DNA from: a virus
Strand: one strand, 5' to 3'
DNA length: 64,000 bases
Virus record (IMG/VR): IMGVR_UViG_3300035557_000069
Shown: positions 36,704-64,000 of the stretch, piece after piece
Layout: every line of letters begins with the position of its first letter
Position numbering within the stretch: the stretch's first letter is position 1
Position numbers and translations under genes: made by a program
Notes under the pieces: model-generated
Databases searched by the model: none
Seen by the model: the letters and a program-made list of their open reading frames with translations, nothing else
What the model was told of the DNA's origin: nothing

Positions 36704-36937
36704 TTACTCCACGGGTGTAGTGGGAGTAACCTGCGGAATTGCCTGACCACGAATCTTACCAATGAGATCCGCGACACGCACATAAGGACCGGCTGCCAGC
36801 GCATCAAGCGCCAGGTTGACTTCATCAACAGTCAGAACAAGGGTGATTAGCTTTGGCTCAACGACTTCCTGAGTATTCTCTTCTTTTCCTTCTGTCATCT
36901 TCTTACCTTTCATGGTTACAACGTTATTTTTCTTCAT
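36704..36937 (-). CDS. Small protein translationally coupled to the radical-SAM gene, 77 aa. Possible partner, RRE-like (RiPP-recognition-element) or substrate.
   Basis: Overlaps the rSAM stop by 14 nt. Lys-rich N-terminus, then LITLVLTVDEVNLALDALAAGPYVRVADLIGKI. Confidence 0.4.
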   Translation of the reverse strand: MKKNNVVTMKGKKMTEGKEENTQEVVEPKLITLVLTVDEVNLALDALAAGPYVRVADLIGKIRGQAIPQVTPTTPVE

Positions 36938-37985
36938 CTGTTTTGATCCATTTCAGTTCTGCTGAGGATGTGGTTGTTATGTGTGAATCTCGAAAACCCG
37001 GCGGATACGTCTGTACTGCATACATCATAACTTGATTGTCCATCCACGGTGGTCTGATGTTATCACTTTGTTTTGGGAATGGTGTTTCAATCGGTTGTAG
37101 TCTCATTATCTTTTGAACCAGAGACGGGGATTGTTCAAAACACACACGATTGCAATGGTCCTTACAACACTTGGGTGTACCAAATCGCCAATCACGGAAA
37201 CCAGTCTCCCAGATTTGCCCCATGCTTTCCTTTAGGAGATTGCCTTGAACCGGCGCATCCGTCCAAGAAACCATAGACAGACAAGGAATAACATCGCCGT
37301 TGCAAAGAACACCCAGAGAAGACATTCCCGCGCCGCAGGCACCGCCGTTAAAGTTGTCAGCAACAATAACATCTTTGTATCCCTTCATGGCACTATTAAT
37401 CTTATCACACAACGTCTTGGTTGCATACTCGGATTCATAGATGGCGTTAGAGTTTTTGTCTTTGTACATGGTCAACTGAATCTGCCAAAGCAACCCCCTC
37501 TGCTGAACAACGTCAAAGATGGTTTCAAACATCCATAGATTTGTTTTGTTGAAGTTGGTGATGATGGTCGGGCGATACTTGGTATCCTTGAAGTACTTCG
37601 TATACAGTTCACACTCTCGTTCGGTGTTAATAGAGACGCCGATACCATCATAAAGGTCAAGAATGGCACCCCACTCGGATTCACCATAGGGCATAGAACC
37701 ATCGGTCTTAGGCAAAGACTGGGGATTAACCAAAATCTTCGACTTGATACCTTTACATTTGAAGATATCGGTAATTTCGTAGTGTGCTTTCCAAGGTACA
37801 AGCATAGGATCACCACCAGAAATATTCACCTCTTTGGGTGGATACTTAGCAATCGCTTGTGCAATCTCAGCATACTTTTCGGGATCACGCGACACTCTTA
37901 TTCCATGTTCCTTGGAACCACAATAGTCACAGTTGTTGGTGCATCGGTCGGTAATCTCCCAGATTACTTCATTCAGTCTAATCAT
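36924..37985 (-). CDS. Radical SAM enzyme with a C-terminal SPASM/twitch-type auxiliary Fe-S domain, 353 aa.
   Basis: CxxxCxxC cluster CTNNCDYC. Gly-rich SAM motif ISGGDP. C-terminal GGACGAGMSSLGVLCNGDVIPC ... CCKDHCNRVC matches the SPASM Cys pattern. Confidence 0.75.
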   Translation of the reverse strand: MIRLNEVIWEITDRCTNNCDYCGSKEHGIRVSRDPEKYAEIAQAIAKYPPKEVNISGGDPMLVPWKAHYEITDIFKCKGIKSKILVNPQSLPKTDGSMPYGESEWGAILDLYDGIGVSINTERECELYTKYFKDTKYRPTIITNFNKTNLWMFETIFDVVQQRGLLWQIQLTMYKDKNSNAIYESEYATKTLCDKINSAMKGYKDVIVADNFNGGACGAGMSSLGVLCNGDVIPCLSMVSWTDAPVQGNLLKESMGQIWETGFRDWRFGTPKCCKDHCNRVCFEQSPSLVQKIMRLQPIETPFPKQSDNIRPPWMDNQVMMYAVQTYPPGFRDSHITTTSSAELKWIKTDEEK

Positions 37986-47080: not shown

Positions 47081-48008
47081 TTACTTCGTCACATCGATGA
47101 AGGGCATCGGAGCATTCCCACCCATATACGCGGGTAGCTTACCATCCCACTTCTCAATAGCTTTCAGTTGCACGTATTCCTTACCACCCTGCTTCTGAAT
47201 AGCCTCTGCCTGAATGCGAATCTGTTCTGCCTCTGCTTCTGCCATCGCTACCTTCTGCTCGGCTTCGACCTTCACACGCTCAAGGTCATTTCGTGCCTTC
47301 ATAGCTTGCTGTTCGGCAGTCTGCTTTGCTTCAATAGCGGCATTGAACGATTGTGAGAAGTGGAAGTTTGTAATCTGAATGTCTTCCACGACCACGTTAT
47401 ACTCAGAGATAGACCGACGGAGGGCAGCCGCAATCTCATTCTTTACAGCTTCACGCATGGAAAGCAATTGCTCAGCAGAATACTTCGCTACGACTGCCTT
47501 TACAACCTCTTGAATACGTGGAGCGATAATCTTGTTCTCAACGTCTGTACCGATGGTGGAATAAATCTCCGACAGTTTGTTTTCATTGAGGTGATAGTTC
47601 AACGCTACCTCAGTATCAACATTTTGAAGGTCTTTCGTGCCAGCGTTTCGCCGGCGCTTGTGCTTTCTGTGTCTTTACGTCAATGAACACAATGCGGTCA
47701 CGAATAGGTACTCGGAAGTTCAGACCAGAACTAGCAACATTGGAAACAGAGCCGAACGATAGAACGACCGCGCGTTGACCAGCATCAACAGTGTAGAAAC
47801 AGTTGGTTGCCACCATAATCAGCAATCCCGCAAGGATGCCGAAGAGTAGATAGCGAACCTTCAACGGAAACACGAACGGCGTCTCCGCTCGTTTGGAAGT
47901 GGGAAGAGCATTGTATTCTGCTTTCTCTTCAATATACGCCCACACATAAAAACCAATACCCAACAACACAAGCACAATCACGAGGATATTCACGACCAAA
48001 GCCAACAT
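47081..48008 (-). pseudogene. SPFH/band-7 (prohibitin/HflK/C-like) membrane-protein gene split by a +1 frameshift near 47640 into ORFs 47616-48008 (TM plus SPFH N-terminus) and 47081-47602 (SPFH C-terminus).
   Basis: The upstream ORF ends ...VDAGQRAVVLSFGSV...NFRVPIRDRIVFIDVKTQKAQAPAKRWHERPSKC*. The next frame continues with the canonical TKDLQNVDTEVALNYHL...RIQEV...NVVVEDIQITNFHFSQSFNAAIEAKQTAEQQA (SPFH core plus C-terminal coiled coil). Junction read directly from the sequence. Confidence 0.6.
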
Positions 48009-48842: not shown

Positions 48843-50228
48843 TTAGATAACAACCTCGTACTTGCTGACAGTGTTCAGCATAACATTACGTGGATTAGTA
48901 ATGTCGCCAGAAAGTACACCCTTAAGGACCTGCGGGCTGTAACCACCAATCAACGCGGTGTTACCGTCGTTGCGGAGAACAGGTAGATTGGAACCACGCC
49001 CGTTCACGTTCCAGAACACAACAGCCGGCATCTTGTAACCGGAAGCCTCATACTGCTTACGGATACGATGATAGGTCGAGTCATCCGCCCCATTGATACA
49101 ACCATCGAACTGCATATCCGAAACAATCAGGATAGCATCAGGTAGTTCCGACTGGTCAAGACGGTTCTTCACTGCCGTGTTGAGGATGGTAGCGAACACT
49201 GCATCCAGATTAGTGTTCATACCCCATTCCGAACGCTCAATATAGTGCATCTTCTGCCCGAGCGTGGTGTACTTGGAAATGTCCTTGAACTCAGGACGCT
49301 CGGAGAACGTCACGAACTGGTTCTTGAACTGACCCTCATTGCGTTCAGCACAATAGATACCCAGACCAACAGCAATATCGATTGCCTGAATAGACCCCGA
49401 GACCGGCGTGAACATGGAACCAGAAACGTCGATGACAGGCAGAATGTTACGTTGCTTGCCTTCGAACAGGTCAGGAAGAGCATTCCACTGAACATCCGCG
49501 GAAGCATTGTGTTGACGGAGACCACGGACGATATCGTGGGGGAATACAGCACCCGCCTTGATAGTGTCCTTACCTTCCTTCACACGATTGATGAAGGCAA
49601 CAAAACGCTCGTTGTCGTTACGTCCGAACGCCTTACCGTAGCGAGACATAGCCACAGAAGGGACCGAGGAATACTTGATAACATCCCAACGCTTCGCGCA
49701 CATGTCCTGCTCAACAGTCCTGGACAGACCAACAATCAGCTTACGGAAGCGAGACTCGGAGAGACCCATTTCCTTCGCCAGCTTGAAGAACGAAGCCTTA
49801 CGGCGTGGAACCCACTTTGCCGCCAGACCATTGCCTTCGCGAAGAGCGTTAGCATAGACACGGATCGCGTTAGCCTCACAAGGAGTACCAACGAGTTCCA
49901 GAACGTCATCCCAACGACCGTACTTCGGCACCAGGTCGATGTTGCGATTGACGTAGGTAGGATGGGTGTTAGCCAGATACTTGAGAGCCTTACGGAAGGC
50001 AGAACGCTCCCCCGCGCCGCCGCGGCAGTCACGACCCCAGAACACGACCTGCAGGGCAGTCTTCGCGTCTTCGGTCAGAGCCGAACGAAGGTCATTGGTG
50101 ATATCCTCACGACGGTACTGAACCATCTTGAAGAACAGATCCACGCATGGATCAAGGGAGGAACGATTGGTGACCGAACCGTTTTCGGTCAGAGTGGTGT
50201 TGTTGACGGCATTGAACAGAGTGGACAT
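48843..50228 (-). CDS. von Willebrand factor A domain protein with an ~250-aa helical N-terminal DUF2828-like region, 461 aa.
   Basis: MIDAS motif ILPVIDVSGSMFTP (DxSxS). The N-terminal VVFWGRDCRGGAGERSAFRKALKYLANTHP is typical of the DUF2828 family as I recall it. Confidence 0.65.
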   Translation of the reverse strand: MSTLFNAVNNTTLTENGSVTNRSSLDPCVDLFFKMVQYRREDITNDLRSALTEDAKTALQVVFWGRDCRGGAGERSAFRKALKYLANTHPTYVNRNIDLVPKYGRWDDVLELVGTPCEANAIRVYANALREGNGLAAKWVPRRKASFFKLAKEMGLSESRFRKLIVGLSRTVEQDMCAKRWDVIKYSSVPSVAMSRYGKAFGRNDNERFVAFINRVKEGKDTIKAGAVFPHDIVRGLRQHNASADVQWNALPDLFEGKQRNILPVIDVSGSMFTPVSGSIQAIDIAVGLGIYCAERNEGQFKNQFVTFSERPEFKDISKYTTLGQKMHYIERSEWGMNTNLDAVFATILNTAVKNRLDQSELPDAILIVSDMQFDGCINGADDSTYHRIRKQYEASGYKMPAVVFWNVNGRGSNLPVLRNDGNTALIGGYSPQVLKGVLSGDITNPRNVMLNTVSKYEVVI

Positions 50229-50938: not shown

Positions 50939-51645
50939 TAGATGACGCCCGGAGTAATGATACTCATAACTTCGGCAAGAGTACCCGTGGCATTCTGTCC
51001 GAACGCAACATATGCATAAGAACTGATGAAAGCCATTGCACTAGCATTAGCCGAGACCTCACCGCTTCCGGTAGTCTCAAACGTAGCAGTCAACGTGGCG
51101 ATATCCGCAACAAGAGCCTCGTGGAGTGGTGTAAAGTTCTCTAGAAGATAACCAACGTCCGGACCTTCACCAATTTCCGGCTGATTGGCAATCAACGCGG
51201 CAAACTCCGCCTCATAGCTTGAGTATATAGCCACTTCGCTGGCTTGATAGTCGGCATCGAAAGTTTTTGTACCCAGAAACATATAGGTACTTTGTTCAGC
51301 AACTGGCGGCAGACCATCTAGATTGTTAACCTCATTCTGAACATTAGTGGCGGATGACAGAAACATCAACTTGGTTTTATAAGCATCATTTGCCAACCAA
51401 GTATTGTTATAATGGTCAAGATATACTTCTTTTAACAATTCAAGGGCAGCCAGAACCTCAGCCTTCTCAACGGAGATATCAACAGGCGTCTCAATGGGTT
51501 CTGGATCACCAATCATCTCATAAACGTAAATCGTTTCATAAGTGGTATTAGCAACAGTCTTTAACGCATCAATCGCGGTAAAGATAGCTGTATACGGATT
51601 GGAGACTGGATTACCAGAGGCATCTATTTTATCAGAGTAAGACAT
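50938..51645 (-). CDS. Hypothetical protein co-transcribed upstream of the PAAR gene, 235 aa.
   Basis: AGGAG SD. Its stop overlaps the PAAR start. Confidence 0.45.
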   Translation of the reverse strand: MSYSDKIDASGNPVSNPYTAIFTAIDALKTVANTTYETIYVYEMIGDPEPIETPVDISVEKAEVLAALELLKEVYLDHYNNTWLANDAYKTKLMFLSSATNVQNEVNNLDGLPPVAEQSTYMFLGTKTFDADYQASEVAIYSSYEAEFAALIANQPEIGEGPDVGYLLENFTPLHEALVADIATLTATFETTGSGEVSANASAMAFISSYAYVAFGQNATGTLAEVMSIITPGVI

Positions 51646-51655
51646 GGAGACTCCT

Positions 51656-51831
51656 AAAAGGGTAACCCGTTTTTTTCTGTTTCCAAGACAAAACGGGTAA
51701 AATCTCAGTCGCGGTTAAGCGGCAAGGGCAAAGTCATACTCGCCTTTTATTGCTTTTGTCTGATATACGGCCATGACATTCCGGACTGTCCATCTTCGTA
51801 CTTGTTACCCAGTCGAAACCTTGGCACCCCC
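51656..51831 (-). ncRNA. ssrA: tmRNA (ssrA) 5' acceptor piece: acceptor 5' strand GGGGGUG (51831-51825), spacer CCAAG, D-loop analogue GUUUCGACUGGG (51819-51808), then a downstream region ending in an intrinsic terminator hairpin (51665-51698 plus a U-tract).
   Basis: Read from the sequence. Spacing and sequence match the E. coli tmRNA 5' end GGGGCUG-AUUCU-GGAUUCGACGGG. GGGGGUG pairs with the 3' strand CACCUCC at 51931-51937, with a G3·U wobble. The terminator is ACCCGUUUU...AAAACGGGU plus CUUUU. Confidence 0.55.
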
Positions 51832-51926
51832 ATCAACAGCATACTAGCAGAAGCCTCTAATCTCGCCCCAGTGGGCATAACACATGGCCTCAGTGCCCCG
51901 ATGTGTCCGGGATGATAGTATGCTCT

Positions 51927-52010
51927 TGGTGGAGGTGGCGGGATCGAACCCGCGTCCTAAGCACCTTTCGGTTGACTTCATACAGTCATATTGCTATTTA
52001 GTTATTACTA
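51927..52010 (-). ncRNA. ssrA: tmRNA (ssrA) 3' piece: T-arm, acceptor 3' strand and ACCA end (core 51927-51957), with short hairpins upstream. It lies 95 nt upstream of the 5' acceptor piece, so the gene looks circularly permuted (two-piece). The upstream boundary is uncertain.
   Basis: Minus strand reads GGAC-GCGGG-UUCGAU-CCCGC-CACCUCC-A-CCA. The E. coli tmRNA 3' end is GGACGCGGGUUCAACUCCCGCCAGCUCCACCA. A73 discriminator. No canonical tRNA 5' half lies within 100 nt upstream. Confidence 0.55.
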
Positions 52011-52328
52011 GAAACGTATTTCGTGATCAACAAGTGGTCCAAGATACTTGTTAATATCAGGATAAGTGCGAATAGTTTTCCACTCACACCACCTCGGTTT
52101 ATGATATCCTCGTTCCGCGTGTTCACTAGTATCAGAAAGATACTCAAACAGGGCGGCGACCATAAGAATCATAAACGGATGGGTCTTTCTATTCACATTA
52201 TGATGTTTATTAAACTGTGAAAGATACGCTCTTCCAGTATCACAATGAGCCACAGTTGTGCAGGACTTCACAACCTTTATGACTTTTTTCAAGTCCGAGT
52301 GTGCTTTACAGTTGTCATAGAAACTCAT
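52008..52328 (-). CDS. ORF of 106 aa that ends in three consecutive stops (UAG UAA UAA), ~50 nt before the tmRNA T-arm. It may be a protein gene and/or may contain the tmRNA tag reading frame.
   Basis: ORF track. SD AAGGAA upstream. The triple-stop reading is from the sequence. Confidence 0.3.
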   Translation of the reverse strand: MSFYDNCKAHSDLKKVIKVVKSCTTVAHCDTGRAYLSQFNKHHNVNRKTHPFMILMVAALFEYLSDTSEHAERGYHKPRWCEWKTIRTYPDINKYLGPLVDHEIRF

Positions 52329-53755: not shown

Positions 53756-55180
53756 TCACAAAATGGGTTTATTTGCGTTCTCCCGAATCTTCTCAAAGTT
53801 AGTCAAGGCAACAAACGGCTCATACAGTTTCTTCGTCATAGTGTAGACCAAGTTCAGGATAATCTTGTCTTCCCAATTCTGGTCATCCAGACGAACGGTT
53901 TTTGCCTTGCCTTCCTCGTCCTCCACGACAGTGAGGCGACCACGTTTGCTTTCTTTGCCCGGTGCTTCCTTGAAAACATCAATCCATTTACCATTGACAA
54001 GCAGGGCGCAACACTTCATGGCGAATCCGTAGGTGTCGCGGTTAACGTGTTGGAGCAGGGCACCACCCATCCCGAATGCTACGTTGTCAGCACTGAAACC
54101 TGCCCACTTGAGAGTAGCTAGGATTTCGTTGATGCTGGCTTTGTTGATGCCGTCTCCTTGAATAACGCGAACATAAGGAGGAAGCACTTTGTAACCCTTG
54201 CTGTTCCGAGTGGTACCAAACTTCTCTGCAAGGATTTCAACACAACGGCGTACGGTCGGAGCGGGGTCCCCCGAGTCCGGACGAATAACCAGAGTACCAC
54301 CAACTGCGCCGAGGGCTTCAACATCTGCCTTCAACTCGGTACCCCAGAGTTCACAAGCCTTGAAGATATCGTAGCTGTCCGAAACAACAGCCACAAGCTT
54401 GCCAGGACCGCCGTATTGTTTCAGCATATTGCGGTATGCTTCAACTTCGTTGTCTTTACCCCAACTGGTGATGGTGCTATGTTCAGCCGCAGGAATACTG
54501 AACCCTGCCATCTCTGCACCGTAGTAGTGATTGGCATACTGAACACCCTCAACAGTGTCCGAGCCGAGAAAGTTTACAAGGTGAGCCGCACCGCCGATAC
54601 CAGCAGTTTCACCCGAAGAGCAACCACGACCACCGAAGTCATGGAGTTTGAATGCGACTTGCTCTTGAACGTCACTGGTCCGCTCAAGGAAGTCTTTGAT
54701 GACTTTCTTGCAGTCATAACTTACAGTGGCGACCGAAGACGGGTACCAGATGGCGCGAAGTAGAGCCGTTTCGAGGAAGTTCACGATCCAAAAGCACACA
54801 GGATCAGTACAACATATCGTAAGTAAGCAATTACGATTTTTAATAACAGTTCCTTCAGGTAAAGCCTTGATAGTGACAGGCATATATCCTTTATACTCGG
54901 TTAGTATATACTCAAATCCTTGTTTATTGAAAGGAACCCCATGTGCTTTACAGAACAGTTCAGCCTCTTCAATATCAGCTTGAGTAATCGGGGTGAGTAG
55001 ATAGTCCTTGATGAACATCTGTAATCCAAAGAACACAAGATGATCTCCTCCTCTCGCTTCAATATACGATTGCATCCCCTCGGCTCCCGGAGGATATTGT
55101 CCTTGATGTTCAGTGTTATTGATACCGATTGAATGCGAGAATTTGTATGAATCGGTGGATAGTAGGATATTTCTTTTCAT
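53756..55180 (-). CDS. nadV: Nicotinamide phosphoribosyltransferase (NadV/Nampt), 474 aa.
   Basis: Length and motifs (STDSYKFSH N-terminus, IRPDSGDP, GDGI) are typical of Nampt. Confidence 0.85.
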   Translation of the reverse strand: MKRNILLSTDSYKFSHSIGINNTEHQGQYPPGAEGMQSYIEARGGDHLVFFGLQMFIKDYLLTPITQADIEEAELFCKAHGVPFNKQGFEYILTEYKGYMPVTIKALPEGTVIKNRNCLLTICCTDPVCFWIVNFLETALLRAIWYPSSVATVSYDCKKVIKDFLERTSDVQEQVAFKLHDFGGRGCSSGETAGIGGAAHLVNFLGSDTVEGVQYANHYYGAEMAGFSIPAAEHSTITSWGKDNEVEAYRNMLKQYGGPGKLVAVVSDSYDIFKACELWGTELKADVEALGAVGGTLVIRPDSGDPAPTVRRCVEILAEKFGTTRNSKGYKVLPPYVRVIQGDGINKASINEILATLKWAGFSADNVAFGMGGALLQHVNRDTYGFAMKCCALLVNGKWIDVFKEAPGKESKRGRLTVVEDEEGKAKTVRLDDQNWEDKIILNLVYTMTKKLYEPFVALTNFEKIRENANKPIL

Positions 55181-55223
55181 AGTAAGTCTCCCTTACTTTG
55201 GTGATGGTGAGTTGTCTATCAAC

Positions 55224-55754
55224 TCACTTATTGAATTGGTGTTTATAAGCCCGTTCTAACCAGATTTTCCATTGCTCTAAACTATGTTCTTTCTTGGAGT
55301 AGTTACAAGCAGAACAACATGGTACAACGTTATCTAGTGTGTAACCCTTGTTATTATCTACCCTATCAATACCGTTATACAGCAACGTATCATAGACCAT
55401 TCTCATTTCTGTGTTCGGTACTGTACCACAATAGTAGCATGACTGTTGCGTAATGTCAACCACATTTTGTAGTGTAAGTTCGAATAATATACCTCTCTTC
55501 TTGGCACCGCTTACGTAACGTCTGTACAACTTTCGTTTGAGACCCATTTGGTCGGGGAATCGACGATTTGGTCTAGGTGGTGAACAATCTTTACACGCCA
55601 GGCGTATTGAGTTACGTAAATCCGTAATATGTGCGTATCTAACACCACCACACTCACACTGACATACCCACTTCTTACGTTCATTATCAAAGTATGTCAG
55701 TGTGAGTTTTCCATATTTCTCGCCGCTTGTTGCTGAGTTATTTGTTCTTGCCAT
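55224..55754 (-). CDS. HNH family endonuclease, a probable free-standing homing endonuclease, 176 aa.
   Basis: N-terminal Cys4 zinc finger (CQCECGG ... CKDC). HNH core CYYCG ... GIDRVDNNKGYTLDNVVPCCSACNYSK. It sits between the two NAD-salvage genes. Confidence 0.7.
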   Translation of the reverse strand: MARTNNSATSGEKYGKLTLTYFDNERKKWVCQCECGGVRYAHITDLRNSIRLACKDCSPPRPNRRFPDQMGLKRKLYRRYVSGAKKRGILFELTLQNVVDITQQSCYYCGTVPNTEMRMVYDTLLYNGIDRVDNNKGYTLDNVVPCCSACNYSKKEHSLEQWKIWLERAYKHQFNK

Positions 55755-55958
55755 TTTGTGTCCGTTTCCAAATAAGTATTTTTATGATTACACTTATTTA
55801 GTAACAGTCACTTTTCTAGGCCTCACTCCTTTTCGGTAATCAGGCTCAACTGCCCACAAGCGGCGCCGGCGGCAACTTCGGCTTCTGTAGCGATAGCAAC
55901 AGCGAAGTCAAAACCGGCTTCTTTAAGTTCCTGAGCGATTTTCTCCATGGTATTCTCC

Positions 55959-56762
55959 TTAGATAATGTTAGTTGTGGTAATGATGCCGGCGCCCAGCCC
56001 ATTCTGGTCGCTAATCTCATTACGATTGATTGGTGATAGCTTGATGAAGAAATACTTTGGGTCAAAATACCTCTTGAGTTTGTCAATGTCAAAGTCCGCT
56101 TCATCGACCAGTGTAAGATTCACAGTGGTCTTCAACTTGCTTTTGGTGCGAATCTGACCAAGTTCTTCAATGGTCATCAGATTGTTCACTGGAATAAGTT
56201 CACGCCTGCGGTCTTCATCTAGTGAATGAAGACTAATCTGGAGCGTGATGTTGTCCTTAATCCAAGAGAAGTCCGACCCCCTAACGCCGATAGTGCTGAT
56301 ATAGTGATGAAACAGAATATCATTTCTGTGTTGCTGGAACATATCAATAGCTTTCCTGACTTCATCAATATTCAGAAAAGGCTCACCCATGCGAGTATAG
56401 TTAATCTTGAGTTCCTTGGGATGTTCGAAGCCAAGAGAATCCAAGAATTCCTCGTTCTTCTCAAGCATAACAAACTTGACTTGGTCTGTAATCTCCTTAG
56501 CAGTAAGATTGCGCCAGCCCTTCATCTGCCCAGTGGCGCAGAACTTACATCCAACAGGACAACCGGACATAGTGGACACACCAATCATCCAGCGTTCTGC
56601 TCTGGAGCCGATATTACCATCCCGCAACGCATTGGTGCCGTTGACACACTCCTTGGTATAGTAAGGCAGAAATGTGTCCGTAGTCTCAATCAGTCGCCCG
56701 TCTTCCAGTTCAAGACAGTAGACGGATCCGTTTGTGAAATGTCGGCTTCGTAGTTCTTTCAT
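55959..56762 (-). CDS. Radical SAM enzyme with an RlmN/Cfr-type cluster motif, N-terminally minimal, 267 aa.
   Basis: CPVGCKFCATG matches the RlmN/Cfr CxxGCxFCxTG pattern. GEPFLN is present. The ~60-aa N-terminal RNA-binding domain of RlmN is absent. Confidence 0.55.
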   Translation of the reverse strand: MKELRSRHFTNGSVYCLELEDGRLIETTDTFLPYYTKECVNGTNALRDGNIGSRAERWMIGVSTMSGCPVGCKFCATGQMKGWRNLTAKEITDQVKFVMLEKNEEFLDSLGFEHPKELKINYTRMGEPFLNIDEVRKAIDMFQQHRNDILFHHYISTIGVRGSDFSWIKDNITLQISLHSLDEDRRRELIPVNNLMTIEELGQIRTKSKLKTTVNLTLVDEADFDIDKLKRYFDPKYFFIKLSPINRNEISDQNGLGAGIITTTNII

Positions 56763-56764
56763 CG

Positions 56765-57796
56765 TTAAATTCCTAGCAAGTCGGTAATGATATCGTAGTG
56801 ATCCTCAAAAAGACGGTCGGGCTCCAGTTCCGAGATGGGCAGCCAGAAAGCCTTCTCCGCATCATCGGCGCCTTTGACTCGCGGCAGGTCACCACAGTTC
56901 GGTAGTTCAATGAGGAATGCGTTAGTCACAGTACGTCCGCGAAGACTACGTTCAGGAGCATCATACACCTTCTGGCGCTTGATACAACCCCTCAGGACGG
57001 GCATGGGAACCTTAATCTTAGTCTCTTCACGAAGTTCCCGAAGCATACCATCAATAAGCGTTTCCTCTTGATTGAGAAAGCCACCCGGCAAGGCATACAG
57101 TCCTTTACCCGGTTCTGCCCGGCGCTTCACCAGCAGAATATGACCAGACTGAATGACAACAGCATCCGTGGTCAGAAATGTCACGGGATAAGGAGCAACA
57201 GCCCATGACTCTTTATATCCCTTGATGTAGAAATACTCCTGAACCAGTTGCTTGAACTCCGGTGTTTGAGTAAAGCCTTGGAGATACTGGAACACGGTCG
57301 GTGGTACAAACTTCTCAAAGTAATCAAACTTGAAGTATCTATCACGCAAGGCGGTGGCGTGAAGATGGCTCAGTTCTTCATCAAAGCCCGCGGGCGAGAT
57401 GAAATGCCACTGCGGGAACATATCGATGTACCAACTGGTGTAGTCTTCCTTGTTACCCGTGATAGCGATACTCCCAAAGTCCGGATCGCCGTTGTCGGAA
57501 AGGATGACTTGGTCCACCACGTTCTGTACATGCATGGCCCATTTCTGGTCATTGTAGGTGAAGTCGTTGAGATAACCATACAGAACGCGGCTATCGTTAT
57601 CAGTGACGCCTCGAATCATAGACACACGTTCACTAGCAGTGAACGGGTTCTTGATTGTACGAGGACGATTAGCCGTGCCGATTAAGACAATGACCTTCTC
57701 GGAGTACTTCAAGGCGTTTTCTAGAATAGCTTGATGGTTCTTGTGGAAGGGCTGAAATCGCCCGATGAATACGCAATACTTGTGTTTTTTAAGCAT
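56765..57796 (-). CDS. natV: Bifunctional NMN adenylyltransferase/Nudix hydrolase (NatV-like), 343 aa.
   Basis: N-terminal nucleotidyltransferase motif CVFIGRFQPFHKNHQ. C-terminal Nudix box GGFLNQEETLIDGMLRELREETKIK. Confidence 0.85.
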   Translation of the reverse strand: MLKKHKYCVFIGRFQPFHKNHQAILENALKYSEKVIVLIGTANRPRTIKNPFTASERVSMIRGVTDNDSRVLYGYLNDFTYNDQKWAMHVQNVVDQVILSDNGDPDFGSIAITGNKEDYTSWYIDMFPQWHFISPAGFDEELSHLHATALRDRYFKFDYFEKFVPPTVFQYLQGFTQTPEFKQLVQEYFYIKGYKESWAVAPYPVTFLTTDAVVIQSGHILLVKRRAEPGKGLYALPGGFLNQEETLIDGMLRELREETKIKVPMPVLRGCIKRQKVYDAPERSLRGRTVTNAFLIELPNCGDLPRVKGADDAEKAFWLPISELEPDRLFEDHYDIITDLLGI

Positions 57797-57821: not shown

Positions 57822-57845
57822 AGTGAGGCGTCTTTCGCCTCACAC
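57822..57845 (-). terminator. Terminator-like hairpin (GTGAGGCG ... CGCCTCAC) followed by a late-promoter-like CTAAATA (57826-57832), just upstream of natV.
   Basis: Read from the sequence. Confidence 0.4.
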
Positions 57846-59130: not shown

Positions 59131-59715
59131 TTACATGGACCCGGTAATATAGTTGTATATAGACTTCCAGTTTTTCACAACAGGGCACCCCGTGTGGTGC
59201 ATATTGTGTTGATGCTCGACCAAAATACCAGTCAGTCCAATGTCCATGCCAACTTGAACGTTCTGAATGTGGTCTTCAATCCAATAGCATTCTGAATCAC
59301 GATACTCTTCTAGGGCTTCGTCTTTATCAGCACCCGTATCAAGAATAATAAACTTATCGAAAGTCGTTTCACCAAACAGCTTCCGAAGGTTCTTGATTCT
59401 AAGTTCCCCCGCATATCGGTCGGTCGATAGCGAGGTGATAACATGGAAAATGTATCCGTGTTGTTCGTGAAGTTTTTTCACATAATGAACAGAGTCACGG
59501 AACGGCGGGAGGAAACCAATAGCGGCAGACTCGTTAAACATGCGGACGAGGTTGCGCTTCTCACCTTGAGGAATTCCATACTGATCCTCAATGCGATAGA
59601 ACAGCTTGTGGTTATCACAAACCTTATATCCCTGTTTAGCCATCCAAGTATGAAAAGCGAACTCCCAGTCCAGAAGTACACCATCACAGTCTGTCAAAAT
59701 CAATTTGTTGTTCAT
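59131..59715 (-). CDS. HAD-superfamily phosphatase, 5'(3')-deoxyribonucleotidase (NT5C)-like, 194 aa.
   Basis: Motif I LILTDCDGVLLDWE (DxDGV, NT5C-type). Confidence 0.55.
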   Translation of the reverse strand: MNNKLILTDCDGVLLDWEFAFHTWMAKQGYKVCDNHKLFYRIEDQYGIPQGEKRNLVRMFNESAAIGFLPPFRDSVHYVKKLHEQHGYIFHVITSLSTDRYAGELRIKNLRKLFGETTFDKFIILDTGADKDEALEEYRDSECYWIEDHIQNVQVGMDIGLTGILVEHQHNMHHTGCPVVKNWKSIYNYITGSM

Positions 59716-62324: not shown

Positions 62325-64000
62325 TCATACGGCGCATTGACCTCCCGCGCAAGCTTGTTCACCTTGTAAATCTGTGTTGTCATCCCGTTCTATAACTTTC
62401 TTTATATCAATGTCGTGCATAAACGACATAAGACGGTCATACTCTTCTTTACTACAATCTTCGAAGGGAGCCTGTGGATAGTCGTGACCATCGTAAGGAA
62501 GAACTGAGATGCCATTATAGAACTCACGATTGTTCCACATCCACTTAGCGACTCTATCCCATTCGTGTTGCTTGATAGAGATAGTGCAAGAGACGTTGTG
62601 ATGATTGGCACCCGTCCTATAACCAGGTCTGACCCACTCTGTATTGAACTTCTTAACACGCTCAAGCAAGTCCATGACCTTCTCATTGCGAAGGATAGAA
62701 CCTTCTGGAGCTTTCTGTGGGAACGAGATAACAGACTCCAAATGTGGTTTGAACTTACAATCTTCCACCAACTCCGGAAAGTTCTCACTCATATAATGGA
62801 ATAGGGCTTCATTCTTTCCGACTCGCACTCGACGGATATAGTAGTCGTTGTGCCATGCGTGAATACCCGAGGAAGAGCCGACCACTAAAGACGATGTACC
62901 AGACGGCTTAACTGTCGTTGTTCTAGCCGCCGGCTGAATGTTCAGAAGATAAGCATACTTCCCGTTCGTTACTCTGACAACCTCGGCTGCCTCGCGAAGG
63001 TCTAGCTTGAGTACAGCACCCGAGGCAATACCAGTCATACCCACACCAATCAACGCCTCCTTGTCTGTGGTGTCTTTCCAGATGTTTCTCAAGTAGTGAA
63101 AGTTAGTGTATGCGGCTTGGAGAGTTCCAATAACTGCCGCGGCCTCGCAACGGTCATTGAGGTCCTTCTGGTCTTCAACATCGGAGACATTGACCTCTGT
63201 AAGATTACAGAACTGGTAAGGGTTCAAAGAGATTTCGCAACAGGGGTTGGTGAATACGTCCTTGTCGTTTGTCCAATAGAAACCGGGCTCACCCGCACCA
63301 GAGTTTTTGACAACTTCCCAAAGCTTCTGGAATTCTTCTTCTGTGACTTCACCGCGTGGTAGCACAACAGAGTTGTTTGACCTACCGCGTTGGGGGTTCA
63401 GTTCGTACCAAGAGTTTGTCTTACAGTAAAGCATATCAAGATCATCGCGGTCAAATCCACAAATCATGGCTGCCCGACGAATACCACCAGCTAGAACAGC
63501 GTCGGCAATGAAGCAACACATATCATAGACTTCTAGACTAGTGAGTTGGCGTCCGATGGCTCCGTTGAGAATAGAGCGCAAACGTTCAATGCAAATCTTG
63601 AGCGGATCGGGTCCAGGTGCCTTGCCACCAGATGTGACAAGACGGGCACCTTTCGGACGGATATCGCGGTAGTCAAACTCGGGATTAGACTTGCCCTTGG
63701 TATACGCTTTAATCAGGACCTTGATAGCATCCGCCCAACCTTCAATGCTATCACCAATCAGATAACGGCGTGGTCTGTCTGTTGGTCCGACGATAACAGG
63801 TAGCTTGCTGATATGATGCTTCTGAACAGAGAAACCAACACCCGTACCACCCAGAAGCAAAAACATCAGTTCTGCAAAGGCGAACGGATGCTCCATGGGC
63901 ATATAGGCGCAATTGAAAATCCTAGAATTGGAAATCTCAATAGGAGTACCAGCAAACTGCATTGACCTCATAGAGGGAAGCACTTTGCGTGGTATGATGA
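62325..64000 (-). CDS. Ribonucleotide reductase catalytic (large) subunit, partial. Its N-terminus lies beyond the right edge.
   Basis: Active-site motif NPCCEISL (N-x-C-x-E at the radical site). LGGTGVGFS. Redox-Cys region IFNCAYMP. C-terminal Cys pair (ACAGGQCAV). About 220 N-terminal residues expected for NrdA/NrdJ are missing, which fits truncation at 64000. Confidence 0.65.
   Translation of the reverse strand, partial: IIPRKVLPSMRSMQFAGTPIEISNSRIFNCAYMPMEHPFAFAELMFLLLGGTGVGFSVQKHHISKLPVIVGPTDRPRRYLIGDSIEGWADAIKVLIKAYTKGKSNPEFDYRDIRPKGARLVTSGGKAPGPDPLKICIERLRSILNGAIGRQLTSLEVYDMCCFIADAVLAGGIRRAAMICGFDRDDLDMLYCKTNSWYELNPQRGRSNNSVVLPRGEVTEEEFQKLWEVVKNSGAGEPGFYWTNDKDVFTNPCCEISLNPYQFCNLTEVNVSDVEDQKDLNDRCEAAAVIGTLQAAYTNFHYLRNIWKDTTDKEALIGVGMTGIASGAVLKLDLREAAEVVRVTNGKYAYLLNIQPAARTTTVKPSGTSSLVVGSSSGIHAWHNDYYIRRVRVGKNEALFHYMSENFPELVEDCKFKPHLESVISFPQKAPEGSILRNEKVMDLLERVKKFNTEWVRPGYRTGANHHNVSCTISIKQHEWDRVAKWMWNNREFYNGISVLPYDGHDYPQAPFEDCSKEEYDRLMSFMHDIDIKKVIERDDNTDLQGEQACAGGQCAV

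What the first reader, a model, noticed from the sequence alone, without database searches (positions are those of the whole stretch)
53756..57796. NAD+ salvage pair NadV/NatV (Nampt + Nmnat-Nudix), split by an HNH endonuclease and an RlmN/Cfr-like radical SAM gene
NadV plus NatV is the KVP40-type pyridine-nucleotide salvage route. A Nampt plus Nmnat pair has recently been reported as a phage NAD+-reconstitution pathway (NARP2) that counters NAD-depleting defence systems. Here the two genes are separated by a free-standing HNH homing-type endonuclease, which suggests mobile-element traffic in this locus. Between them also sits a 267-aa radical SAM protein whose CxxGCxFCxTG cluster motif is that of the RlmN/Cfr rRNA/tRNA adenine methyltransferases, though it lacks their N-terminal domain. 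The role of an RlmN-like enzyme inside an NAD-salvage operon is unexplained.
Basis: partly seen in the sequence, partly recalled or inferred. Interest (0 to 1): 0.6.

Follow-up and report, generated by a model that had tools for sequence, protein, structure and literature searches.

The report
Split RlmN-like enzyme in NAD operon
A T4-like phage carries the known two-gene NAD+ rebuilding pathway, and wedged inside it sits an undescribed two-piece radical-SAM enzyme related to the RNA methylases RlmN and Cfr, whose catalytic cysteine is made as a separate 41-amino-acid peptide.

Summary
All four ORFs are at the stated coordinates: NadV, an HNH endonuclease, a 267-aa radical-SAM (rSAM) protein and NatV. 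NadV and NatV match the known NARP2 NAD+ salvage pair. The HNH gene is a lineage-specific, low-GC insertion.

It encodes the RlmN/Cfr C-terminal 'AACGQL' loop, which carries the methyl-carrier cysteine. The 267-aa core is RlmN/Cfr-like by sequence and fold. It lacks the N-terminal RNA-binding domain, and it has an invariant glycine where RlmN has the adduct-resolving Cys118.

Core plus separate peptide recurs in 65 of 67 non-redundant phage loci, 14 nt to 5.6 kb apart, sometimes in reversed order. Peptide dN/dS is 0.13. Unsplit phage relatives keep both cysteines.

About a fifth of both the split and the unsplit phage families lie near NadV, and in 19 of those 25 groups within 700 nt of it. 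One relative is fused to a Nudix domain. The NAD link therefore looks real.

The substrate is unknown. I found no curated family and no paper describing this. It is a new variant of a known enzyme class.

The parts
56765..57796 (-). natV: bifunctional NMN adenylyltransferase plus Nudix hydrolase (343 aa), first gene of the block
   Evidence: NCBIfam PRK05379.1-2 at 413 bits (cutoff 397). Pfam CTP_transf_like plus NUDIX. PHROG 395. Its stop codon is 2 nt before the rSAM start codon.
55959..56762 (-). RlmN/Cfr-like radical-SAM core (267 aa). Cluster cysteines are C68, C72 and C75. Gly61 sits at the position of RlmN Cys118. There is no N-terminal RNA-binding domain and no C-terminal Cys loop.
   Evidence: NCBIfam RlmN at 79 bits (cutoff 290), aligned to model positions 102-244. 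PDB alignments place G61 opposite Cfr C105 and the RlmN C118A position. AF2 model pLDDT 84; the top 8 Foldseek PDB hits are RlmN/Cfr. Only the three cluster cysteines are invariant.
55823..55948 (-). 41-aa acidic peptide MEKIAQELKEAGFDFAVAIATEAEVAAGAACGQLSLITEKE. It corresponds to the last helix, last strand and methyl-carrier Cys loop of RlmN/Cfr, encoded as a separate gene.
   Evidence: Translation. Core and peptide joined artificially align to RlmN model 102-342/355 and Cfr model 100-336/338. hhalign of the peptide family against the C-termini of unsplit relatives gives 96.6% probability, E 6.7e-10. 61 stand-alone homologues of 37-53 aa were found. dN/dS is 0.13.
55949..55958 (-). 10-nt spacer GGAGAATACC between the core stop codon and the peptide ATG. 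It holds a Shine-Dalgarno GGAG, and the peptide is in a different reading frame from the core.
   Evidence: Sequence.
55224..55754 (-). Free-standing HNH homing-type endonuclease (176 aa) inserted between the peptide gene and nadV
   Evidence: PHROG 1035, 3322 and 3118 at E 5e-18 to 1e-14. GC3 0.37 against 0.49-0.56 in neighbours. Absent at this position in relatives and present elsewhere in L024 and L086.
53756..55180 (-). nadV: nicotinamide phosphoribosyltransferase (474 aa)
   Evidence: NCBIfam PRK09198 at 576 bits. Pfam NAPRTase plus NAMPT_N. PHROG 448 at E 2e-154. 45-54% identical to NadV of many large phages.
57823..57843 (.). GC-rich hairpin in the 70-nt gap upstream of natV; a possible boundary of the transcription unit
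   Evidence: Terminator-like pattern scan and sequence. This is a consensus match only.

Best explanation
The block natV - rSAM core - 41-aa peptide - [HNH] - nadV is a NARP2-type NAD+ salvage module of a T4-like phage. It carries an accessory two-component radical-SAM enzyme and, in this lineage, an intruding HNH homing endonuclease.

The rSAM unit is a naturally split, N-terminally truncated relative of the class A methylases RlmN and Cfr. The 267-aa core holds the [4Fe-4S]/SAM site. The 41-aa acidic peptide supplies in trans the last helix, the last beta-strand and the 'AACGQL' loop, whose single Cys corresponds to the methyl-carrier Cys355 of RlmN.

Inferred mechanism, not shown:
1. The peptide docks on the core by strand complementation.
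2. Its Cys is S-methylated by one SAM.
3. A second SAM gives a 5'-deoxyadenosyl radical, which abstracts a hydrogen atom.
4. The resulting thiomethylene radical adds to an electron-poor sp2 carbon of the substrate.

The core has Gly where RlmN has the resolving Cys118, and there is no other conserved Cys. Product release therefore cannot follow the RlmN route. Either an external thiol or a second peptide resolves the adduct, or the peptide is a single-use donor that stays attached.

The substrate is not established. My ranking is:
- an adenine (or pyridine) nucleotide of the NAD+/ADP-ribose pool handled by NadV and NatV, about 0.35;
- RNA adenine (tRNA A37 or rRNA), about 0.3;
- dATP or DNA, about 0.1.
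For: The NARP2 genes are identified.

Split enzyme:
- The peptide ORF has its own SD and its own reading frame.
- Core and peptide joined artificially align end to end with RlmN and Cfr models.
- hhalign of the peptide family against the C-termini of unsplit relatives gives 96.6% probability.
- The fold search returns only RlmN/Cfr at E<1e-7.
- G61 aligns with Cfr C105 and RlmN C118, and Gly is found there in 67 of 67 non-redundant groups.
- Only the three cluster cysteines are invariant in the core, and the peptide has one invariant Cys.

Conservation of the split:
- The peptide is found in 65 of 67 groups, on the same strand, 14 nt to 5.6 kb from the core. It lies upstream of the core in L103 and L141.
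- Peptide dN/dS is 0.13.
- Among 97 near-complete representatives, Cys at -7 goes with a fused CGQ motif (38) and non-Cys goes with no motif (51), with 8 exceptions.
- In unsplit phage relatives, 66 of 66 have the fused motif, 65 of 66 have Cys at -7, and none has a peptide ORF.
- Vibrio phage D479 has two tandem peptide copies in one ORF, which fits a consumable reagent.

Mechanistic premise: Cys355 is the methyl carrier, and the C118A mutant traps a covalent enzyme-RNA adduct (PMC5130265).

NAD link:
- NadV lies within 10 kb in 11 of 67 split groups, and within 700 nt in 10 of those 11, in at least four gene orders.
- In the unsplit family it lies within 8 kb in 14 of 66 groups, and within 700 nt in 9 of those 14. 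L180 has the same order, NatV - RlmN-like - NadV.
- In L155 an RlmN-like-Nudix fusion is followed by a NAPRTase-family gene and a stand-alone Nmnat.
- natV and the core are 2 nt apart in the window.

Against an RNA substrate:
- The N-terminal domain is missing.
- Core pI is about 6.2 and peptide pI about 4.
- The substrate-proximal 'MGMGE' of RlmN/Cfr is replaced by an invariant 'TRMGE'.
Against: - No biochemical data exist and the substrate is unknown.
- The only known substrates of class A rSAM methylases are RNA adenines.
- tRNA arrays flank the module in several loci (L030, L038, L042, L031). An unsplit relative sits inside a tRNA array in Stenotrophomonas phage ANB28.
- About 80% of carriers (crAss-like phages, Moorella phage, Pectobacterium phages) have no NAD genes within 8-10 kb.
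- KVP40's two-gene NARP2 works without any rSAM gene.
- NadV is common in large phages, at 22-33% of genomes (PMC9503650). Accessory genes also cluster, so part of the linkage may be inherited synteny. My counts are not phylogenetically corrected.
- The complex could not be modelled, so docking of the peptide is inferred from homology only.
Confidence: 0.55

Rival explanations
1. Ordinary RlmN/Cfr function. The phage enzyme methylates C2 or C8 of A2503 in host 23S rRNA, or A37 of host or phage tRNAs, to tune translation or to protect tRNAs from anticodon nucleases. The neighbouring NAD genes are unrelated.
For: - The best sequence and fold matches are RlmN/Cfr.
- tRNA arrays adjoin the module in L030 (21 tRNAs), L038 (30), L042 and L031, and the ANB28 homologue lies within a tRNA array.
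- The core is 60-73% identical across phages of very different hosts, as expected for a universally conserved target.
Against: - Three defining features fail: the N-terminal RNA-binding domain, Cys118, and a Cys355 loop on the same chain.
- Scores are far below the family cutoffs.
- Core plus peptide is net acidic.
- Substrate-proximal residues are changed.
- By the known mechanism, an enzyme without Cys118 stalls as a covalent adduct.
- Tight, recurrent linkage to NadV/NatV and a Nudix fusion.
Confidence: 0.2
2. The peptide is the product, not a subunit. This would be a RiPP-like system in which the RlmN-derived core modifies the peptide's Cys. In other phages further rSAM and methyltransferase genes would tailor it.
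For: - A small conserved peptide gene sits beside one to three rSAM genes and a 148-aa methyltransferase. An rSAM3 plus MT148 cassette occurs in 15 of 67 groups and rSAM2 in 12 of 67, usually between core and peptide.
- A core-rSAM2 fusion protein exists (P0204).
- Vibrio phage D479 has a tandem peptide duplication.
Against: - The peptide is homologous along its length to the structural C-terminus of RlmN/Cfr.
- It is uniformly conserved and does not show the conserved leader and variable core of a RiPP precursor.
- The core has no SPASM, twitch or RRE domain.
- The window has none of the tailoring genes.
- A role for a secreted or bioactive peptide in lytic phages of many hosts is unclear.
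Confidence: 0.1
3. Phage DNA or dNTP hypermodification. The enzyme makes C-methyl-adenine at the dAMP/dATP level or on DNA, to evade restriction.
For: - The gene lies among nucleotide-metabolism genes: an NT5C-like gene at 59131-59715 and RNR at 62325-63983. In relatives the neighbours include thymidylate synthase, Nuc_deoxyri_tr2 and NT5C.
- A relative is fused to a dGTPase-type HD domain (P0247).
- There is precedent for a phage rSAM enzyme acting on DNA bases (M6 gp53, PMC8989533).
Against: - No C-methyl-adenine has been reported in phage DNA in the papers I retrieved.
- The HD fusion is in a bacterial-looking context.
- No polymerase or dATPase is consistently linked.
- A stoichiometric peptide donor would be very costly for genome-wide modification.
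Confidence: 0.1
4. The small ORF is debris of a frameshifted or decaying RlmN gene, or an assembly error, and the rSAM gene is non-functional.
For: Read alone, the window shows a truncated rSAM ORF followed by an out-of-frame fragment carrying the missing motif.
Against: - The same two-ORF arrangement occurs in 65 of 67 non-redundant loci from independent assemblies and isolates.
- Spacings and reading frames differ, other genes intervene, and the order is sometimes reversed.
- The peptide has its own SD and ATG.
- dN/dS is 0.13.
- The core is 60-80% identical among carriers.
Confidence: 0.02

Closest known systems
RlmN and Cfr (class A radical-SAM methylases; 23S rRNA A2503 C2/C8 and tRNA A37 C2)
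   Same: - Same fold (Foldseek hits 6fz6, 4pl1, 3rf9 and 9p0p at E 3e-12 to 9e-8).
- Same GCxxxCxFCxTG cluster context.
- SLHS and MGEP-type core motifs.
- A C-terminal helix-strand-'AACGQL' element with a single Cys.
   Different: - No N-terminal RNA-binding domain.
- Gly in place of the resolving Cys118/Cys105.
- The Cys355/Cys338 loop is a separate 41-aa polypeptide.
- 'TRMGEP' replaces 'MGMGEP'.
- HMM scores are 50-79 bits against cutoffs of 290-633.
- Encoded by phages.
Unsplit phage 'mini-RlmN' proteins (for example Salmonella phage Arash gp133c, and the Stenotrophomonas phage ANB28 protein annotated as RlmN)
   Same: - Phage-encoded and N-terminally truncated.
- About 30-35% identical to the core.
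- About a fifth of loci lie near NadV/NatV, including the same order NatV - RlmN-like - NadV in L180.
   Different: They are single polypeptides of about 300-320 aa. They keep Cys at the Cys118 position (65 of 66) and a fused 'GGGCGQLW' C-terminus (66 of 66), and none has a peptide gene.
NARP2 (Nampt plus Nmnat) of Vibrio phage KVP40
   Same: A NadV-type Nampt and a NatV-type Nmnat-Nudix in one block.
   Different: KVP40 gave no match to the rSAM core, and the published pathway has two genes. Here the pair is interrupted by the core, the peptide and an HNH gene.
Free-standing HNH homing endonucleases of T4-like phages
   Same: - HNH motif.
- Intergenic position next to conserved genes.
- Sporadic distribution.
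- Deviant base composition.
   Different: Cleavage activity and target site are untested. Pfam HNH models did not match at E<0.01.

Membership tests
RlmN/Cfr (class A rSAM methylases) | Radical-SAM CxxxCxxC cluster in the GCxxxCxFCxTG context | tested here: met
   SGCPVGCKFCATG at residues 66-78. C68, C72 and C75 are invariant in the family.
RlmN/Cfr (class A rSAM methylases) | Score above the curated equivalog cutoff of the RlmN or Cfr models | tested here: not met
   Best score is 79 bits against a cutoff of 290 (TIGR00048). Cfr models give 63-65 bits against cutoffs of 468-550. Adding the peptide artificially raises the best score to 87 bits.
RlmN/Cfr (class A rSAM methylases) | RlmN/Cfr fold of the catalytic domain | tested here: met
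   AF2 model pLDDT 84.3. The top 8 PDB matches are RlmN/Cfr at E 2.9e-12 to 9e-8, and the next family scores 3e-3.
RlmN/Cfr (class A rSAM methylases) | N-terminal accessory (RNA-binding) domain | tested here: not met
   HMM alignments start at model position about 100 and at protein residue 55-61.
RlmN/Cfr (class A rSAM methylases) | Methyl-carrier Cys (RlmN C355, Cfr C338) in a C-terminal loop of the same polypeptide | tested here: not met
   It is absent from the 267-aa protein. It is present in trans on the 41-aa ORF.
RlmN/Cfr (class A rSAM methylases) | Resolving Cys seven residues before the first cluster Cys (RlmN C118, Cfr C105) | tested here: not met
   Gly61. Gly is found there in 67 of 67 non-redundant groups, and no other Cys is conserved.
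RlmN/Cfr (class A rSAM methylases) | Methylation of C2 or C8 of A2503 or A37 | not testable with these tools
   Needs biochemistry.
NARP2 NAD+ reconstitution pathway | Nampt (NadV) homologue | tested here: met
   PRK09198 at 576 bits, NAMPT_N plus NAPRTase, PHROG 448.
NARP2 NAD+ reconstitution pathway | Nmnat (NatV/NadM-Nudix) encoded in the same genome | tested here: met
   PRK05379.1-2 at 413 bits, above the cutoff. It lies 1.6 kb from nadV on the same strand.
NARP2 NAD+ reconstitution pathway | No Adps (the NARP1 partner) in the genome; NadV in the Nampt clade and not the Namat clade | not tested
   Only 64 kb of the genome is visible, and no clade phylogeny was built.
NARP2 NAD+ reconstitution pathway | Restores NAD+ and counters NAD-depleting defence | not testable with these tools
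   Needs infection assays.
Free-standing HNH homing endonuclease | HNH (beta-beta-alpha-metal) nuclease motif | tested here: met
   PHROG 1035, 3322 and 3118. The motif is visible in the sequence. Pfam gave no hit at E<0.01.
Free-standing HNH homing endonuclease | Sporadic presence at this site among relatives | tested here: met
   Absent between the peptide gene and NadV in L026, L050 and L051. Homologues are at other sites in L024 and L086. GC3 is 0.37 against 0.49-0.56 in neighbours.
RiPP precursor plus rSAM maturase | SPASM, twitch or RRE domain in the maturase; leader/core organisation of the peptide | tested here: not met
   The core has only a Radical_SAM domain. The peptide is conserved throughout and is homologous to the enzyme's own C-terminus.

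The most novel reading that the evidence does not exclude
Phage mini-RlmN enzymes, split or unsplit, would be a third, facultative component of NARP2-type NAD+ salvage modules. They would act on a free nucleotide of that pathway (NAD+, NMN, ADP-ribose or an ADPR-derived immune signal) rather than on RNA.

In the split family the 41-aa peptide would be a consumable methyl(ene) donor. Because no resolving cysteine exists, it could end up covalently bridged to its target. That would be radical-SAM peptide tagging, or C-methylation, of a nucleotide as a counter-defence chemistry.
Probability: 0.2. Interest if true: 0.9.

Novelty: new variant of a known kind. Interest (0 to 1): 0.7.

Why it matters
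Class A radical-SAM methylases are a mechanistic textbook case that depends on two cysteines in one polypeptide. Here a widespread phage family breaks that rule. It occurs on 279 IMG/VR contigs, in crAss-like phages, T4-like phages, jumbo phages and phages of Firmicutes. One cysteine has moved to a separately encoded 41-aa peptide and the other has been lost.

This poses a sharp, testable question: how is the covalent intermediate resolved, or is the peptide sacrificed?

The family and its unsplit cousins also sit directly beside NadV/NatV far more often than chance placement would give. This points to an unrecognised accessory step in phage NAD+ reconstitution, a pathway now known to defeat Thoeris, DSR, SIR2-HerA and similar defences.

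Practically, many genomes annotate the two ORFs as 'hypothetical' or as 'RlmN'. Both labels mislead.

Tried and rejected
- Megablast of the locus against 50,697 phage records found nothing, so there is no close sequenced relative.
- SPFH/prohibitin association. It was suggested by annotations in Kehishuvirus and in Stenotrophomonas and Xanthomonas phages, and by an SPFH gene at 47081-48008. SPFH did not recur near the core in the 134 loci examined, so I rejected it.
- The second and third rSAM genes and the 148-aa methyltransferase found between core and peptide in other phages are absent from the window. They are facultative.
- PADLOC gave no defence-system match for the core or the peptide. 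rSAM2 and rSAM3 gave only generic N-terminal viperin-like matches.
- The isochorismatase fusions (P0296, P0246) looked like a nicotinamidase link. NCBIfam gives only generic hydrolase matches, and they lie in bacterial Elusimicrobiota contexts, so I did not use them as evidence.
- The HD-dGTPase fusion (P0247) lies in a bacterial-looking context and is weak evidence.
- tRNA proximity is seen in only about 10 of 52 loci and is inconclusive.
- A conserved N-terminal Cys39 as a substitute resolving Cys was rejected, because it is Ala in several members.
- Papers mentioning RlmN, Cfr-like or RlmN-like enzymes, or radical SAM, together with phages turned up nothing on this system. Neither did the NARP1/2 paper, the NARP3 paper or the viral NAD-ADPr survey.

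Full report
OBSERVATION

The window is part of a T4-like myovirus. PHROGs identify gp6-like and gp5-like baseplate proteins, a tail tube protein, a DNA ligase and a ribonucleotide reductase. The locus has no near-identical relative among 50,697 phage records.

On the minus strand, at exactly the reported coordinates, lie four ORFs:
- natV, 56765-57796, 343 aa. Bifunctional Nmnat/Nudix, 413 bits, above the NCBIfam cutoff.
- a 267-aa radical-SAM ORF, 55959-56762.
- a 176-aa HNH-type ORF, 55224-55754.
- nadV, 53756-55180, 474 aa. 576 bits to PRK09198, with NAMPT_N plus NAPRTase domains.

NadV plus NatV is what Osterman et al. define as NARP2 (bioRxiv 10.1101/2024.02.11.579819).

The rSAM ORF ends with TAA. 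Ten bases later, after GGAG, an ATG opens a 41-codon ORF in another reading frame (55823-55948). It encodes MEKIAQELKEAGFDFAVAIATEAEVAAGAACGQLSLITEKE.

'AACGQL' is the signature of the C-terminal loop of RlmN and Cfr. That loop carries the methyl-carrier cysteine, C355 in RlmN and C338 in Cfr.

Three results show that the peptide is the enzyme's missing C-terminus:
- When the 267-aa and 41-aa sequences are joined artificially, NCBIfam RlmN and Cfr models align from about position 100 to their last residues: 102-342 of 355 and 100-336 of 338.
- A profile of 27 such peptides matches a profile of the C-termini of 30 unsplit relatives with 96.6% probability, E 6.7e-10.
- An AlphaFold2 model of the core (pLDDT 84) finds only RlmN and Cfr structures at E<1e-7.

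NOT A CANONICAL MEMBER

- HMM scores are 50-79 bits against cutoffs of 290-633.
- The N-terminal domain is absent.
- PDB alignments place Gly61 exactly opposite Cfr C105 and the mutated C118A position of E. coli RlmN.

In RlmN, C118 resolves the covalent Cys355-CH2-adenine intermediate, and the C118A mutant traps the enzyme on its RNA (PMC5130265). In the phage family this Gly is found in 67 of 67 non-redundant groups. The only invariant cysteines of the core are the three cluster ligands, and the peptide has a single invariant Cys.

THE SPLIT IS REAL AND CONSERVED

- The same two-ORF arrangement occurs in the crAss-like Kehishuvirus 'tikkala', in Moorella phage MTATph1, in Pectobacterium phage Arno18 (with one gene in between) and in Vibrio phage D479.
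- A protein search found the core as a family of 257-283-aa proteins at 63% identity or more.
- A peptide search found 61 stand-alone ORFs of 37-53 aa, none fused to anything.
- IMG/VR holds 279 contigs with a core. GTDB genomes hold only 47 loci, mostly MAG contigs, so the family is essentially viral.
- After dereplication at 90% core identity, 65 of 67 groups have the peptide on the same strand, 14 nt to 5.6 kb from the core. In L103 and L141 the peptide lies upstream of the core. One of the two exceptions has only 724 nt of downstream sequence.
- Across 46 loci the 27-codon peptide core has dN 0.21, dS 1.59 and dN/dS 0.13.

A frameshift, a pseudogene or an assembly error is therefore excluded.

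CORRELATED LOSS OF THE SECOND CYSTEINE

Among 97 near-complete representatives from a search of 1.84 billion protein representatives:

| Residue at -7 | Fused CGQ motif | No motif |
|---|---|---|
| Cys | 38 | 6 |
| Non-Cys | 2 | 51 |

Fisher p is 3e-18, not corrected for phylogeny.

In a separate sample of the unsplit phage 'mini-RlmN' family (Salmonella phage Arash, Stenotrophomonas phage ANB28 and 66 non-redundant IMG/VR groups), 66 of 66 have the fused motif, 65 of 66 have Cys at -7, and none has a peptide ORF.

Vibrio phage D479 encodes two tandem copies of the peptide in one ORF.

OPTIONAL ADDITIONAL GENES

In other phages, further genes sit between core and peptide:
- a 284-aa rSAM protein, in 12 of 67 groups;
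- or a cassette of a roughly 250-aa rSAM protein plus a 148-aa class I methyltransferase, in 15 of 67 groups.

A core-rSAM fusion protein also exists (P0204). None of these genes is in the window. The minimal unit is core plus peptide.

IS THE NAD CONTEXT MEANINGFUL?

Most carriers have no NAD genes nearby, and KVP40's NARP2 has no rSAM gene. Several observations nevertheless point to a real link.

- In 11 of 67 split groups a full-length NadV lies within 10 kb. In 10 of those 11 it is within 700 nt of the core or the peptide. At least four gene orders occur:
  - NatV-core-pep-NadV
  - NatV-NadV-core-pep
  - NadV-core-pep
  - core-pep-NadV
- The unsplit family shows the same pattern. NadV is present in 14 of 66 groups and within 700 nt in 9 of those 14. 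L180 has the window's own order, NatV - RlmN-like - NadV.
- In L155 an unsplit RlmN-like protein is fused to a Nudix domain. It is followed by a NAPRTase-family gene and a stand-alone Nmnat gene.
- In the window, natV and the core are 2 nt apart.

NadV occurs in 22-33% of medium and jumbo phage genomes (PMC9503650), so its mere presence is unremarkable. Immediate adjacency in 19 of 25 cases is not what random placement within an 8-10 kb flank gives, which is roughly 9%. Shared ancestry inflates these counts. Still, the variety of orders, the divergence (core 36-73% identical, NadV 40-66% identical) and the fusion all argue for operonic linkage.

Neither the NARP1/2 paper, the NARP3 paper nor the Iyer et al. 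survey mentions an rSAM partner.

THE HNH GENE

- It matches PHROG HNH/endonuclease VII families.
- It has no paralogue in the window.
- Its GC3 is 0.37, against 0.49-0.56 in its neighbours.
- It is absent between the peptide gene and NadV in L026, L050 and L051.
- Homologues sit at other intergenic sites of the same module in L024 and L086.
- In L097, NadV itself carries an in-frame intein-like insert, and one core homologue carries an intein (P0183).

Mobile-element traffic at this locus is supported.

MECHANISM

Shown: the homology, the split, the loss of Cys118, the conservation, and the genomic linkage.

Inferred:
1. The peptide docks by strand complementation.
2. Its Cys is S-methylated and then activated to a thiomethylene radical, as in RlmN.
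3. The radical adds to an sp2 carbon of the substrate.
4. Release needs something other than an in-cis cysteine: an external thiol, a second peptide, or no release at all (a sacrificial peptide).

Substrate: homology says RNA adenine. The missing RNA-binding domain, the acidic charge (core pI about 6.2, peptide pI about 4), the altered substrate-proximal motif (TRMGEP in place of MGMGEP) and the NadV/NatV/Nudix linkage all favour a nucleotide of the NAD/ADPR pool. tRNA arrays next to several modules keep the RNA option alive. I cannot decide between these with the available tools.

NOVELTY

No curated family fits. Pfam gives only the generic Radical_SAM domain, NCBIfam hits are below cutoff, and PHROG 24834 is 'unknown function'. 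No paper I could retrieve describes a split RlmN/Cfr-type enzyme or an rSAM partner of NARP2.

I class it as a new variant of a known kind. There is a non-excluded reading, a consumable peptide donor acting on a nucleotide as part of NAD-centred counter-defence, that would be categorically new.

Noticed in passing
window 51715-51987 (-); ARAGORN call 51624-52018: A permuted (two-piece type) tmRNA gene in the phage. Rfam RF04321 at 104.6 bits (gathering score 47), tag peptide GEYDFALAA. It lies about 4 kb from the NAD/rSAM block.
   Followed up: partly
window 48843-50228 (-): A 461-aa protein with DUF2828 plus DUF7788 (PHROG 850, 'RNA-binding protein'; Ro/TROVE-like), just beyond the tmRNA. Possibly an RNA quality-control pair.
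   Followed up: no
window 47616-48008 and 47081-47602 (-): An SPFH/Band_7 gene appears as two consecutive ORFs (N-terminal part 130 aa, C-terminal part 173 aa). This could be a frameshift, a split or an error. SPFH did not co-occur with the rSAM core in other loci.
   Followed up: partly
window 36924-37985 (-): A second, unrelated radical-SAM protein with a SPASM domain (353 aa) in the same phage.
   Followed up: no
L023 3800-4081 (Vibrio phage D479, OZ195776.1): The Cys-peptide is tandemly duplicated within a single 93-aa ORF that overlaps the end of the 281-aa split core.
   Followed up: partly
L046 8734-9465 and 9453-9899; L105, L117, L120, L126 and L130 similar; L005 6757-7611: Facultative genes sit between core and peptide. 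They are either a roughly 250-aa rSAM protein plus a 148-aa class I methyltransferase (15 of 67 groups) or a 284-aa rSAM protein (12 of 67). Within one group of cores at least 90% identical to each other, some genomes have the cassette and some do not.
   Followed up: partly
L097 12267-13214: NadV is interrupted in frame by a 948-nt intein-like element. It starts with Cys, ends with Asn, and contains a LAGLIDADG-like 'LDALRIAFQADGSF'. A core homologue (P0183, 601 aa) also carries an intein with a LAGLIDADG domain.
   Followed up: partly
L155 2043-5374: An unsplit RlmN-like protein fused to a Nudix domain (468 aa), followed by a NAPRTase-family gene (24% identical to the window's NadV) and a stand-alone 174-aa Nmnat.
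   Followed up: yes
L008 7954-8703; L031 15707-15781: In-frame TAG codons in an rSAM gene of one large phage contig, and a tRNA with anticodon CTA in another. These are probably stop-codon-recoded phages.
   Followed up: no
L030 121-7427 and 11269-12217; L038 11898-20317; L021 (Stenotrophomonas phage ANB28): Large tRNA arrays (21 and 30 genes) directly flank NatV-NadV-core-peptide modules. The unsplit ANB28 homologue lies inside a tRNA array.
   Followed up: partly
P0247 (L153 724-3003); P0296 and P0246 (L156 6001-7587): Bacterial-context relatives of the mini-RlmN core are fused to a dGTPase-type HD domain or to an isochorismatase-family hydrolase domain. The latter lack the Cys118-position cysteine. 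P0296 keeps a fused AACGQL motif, while none was found in P0246.
   Followed up: partly
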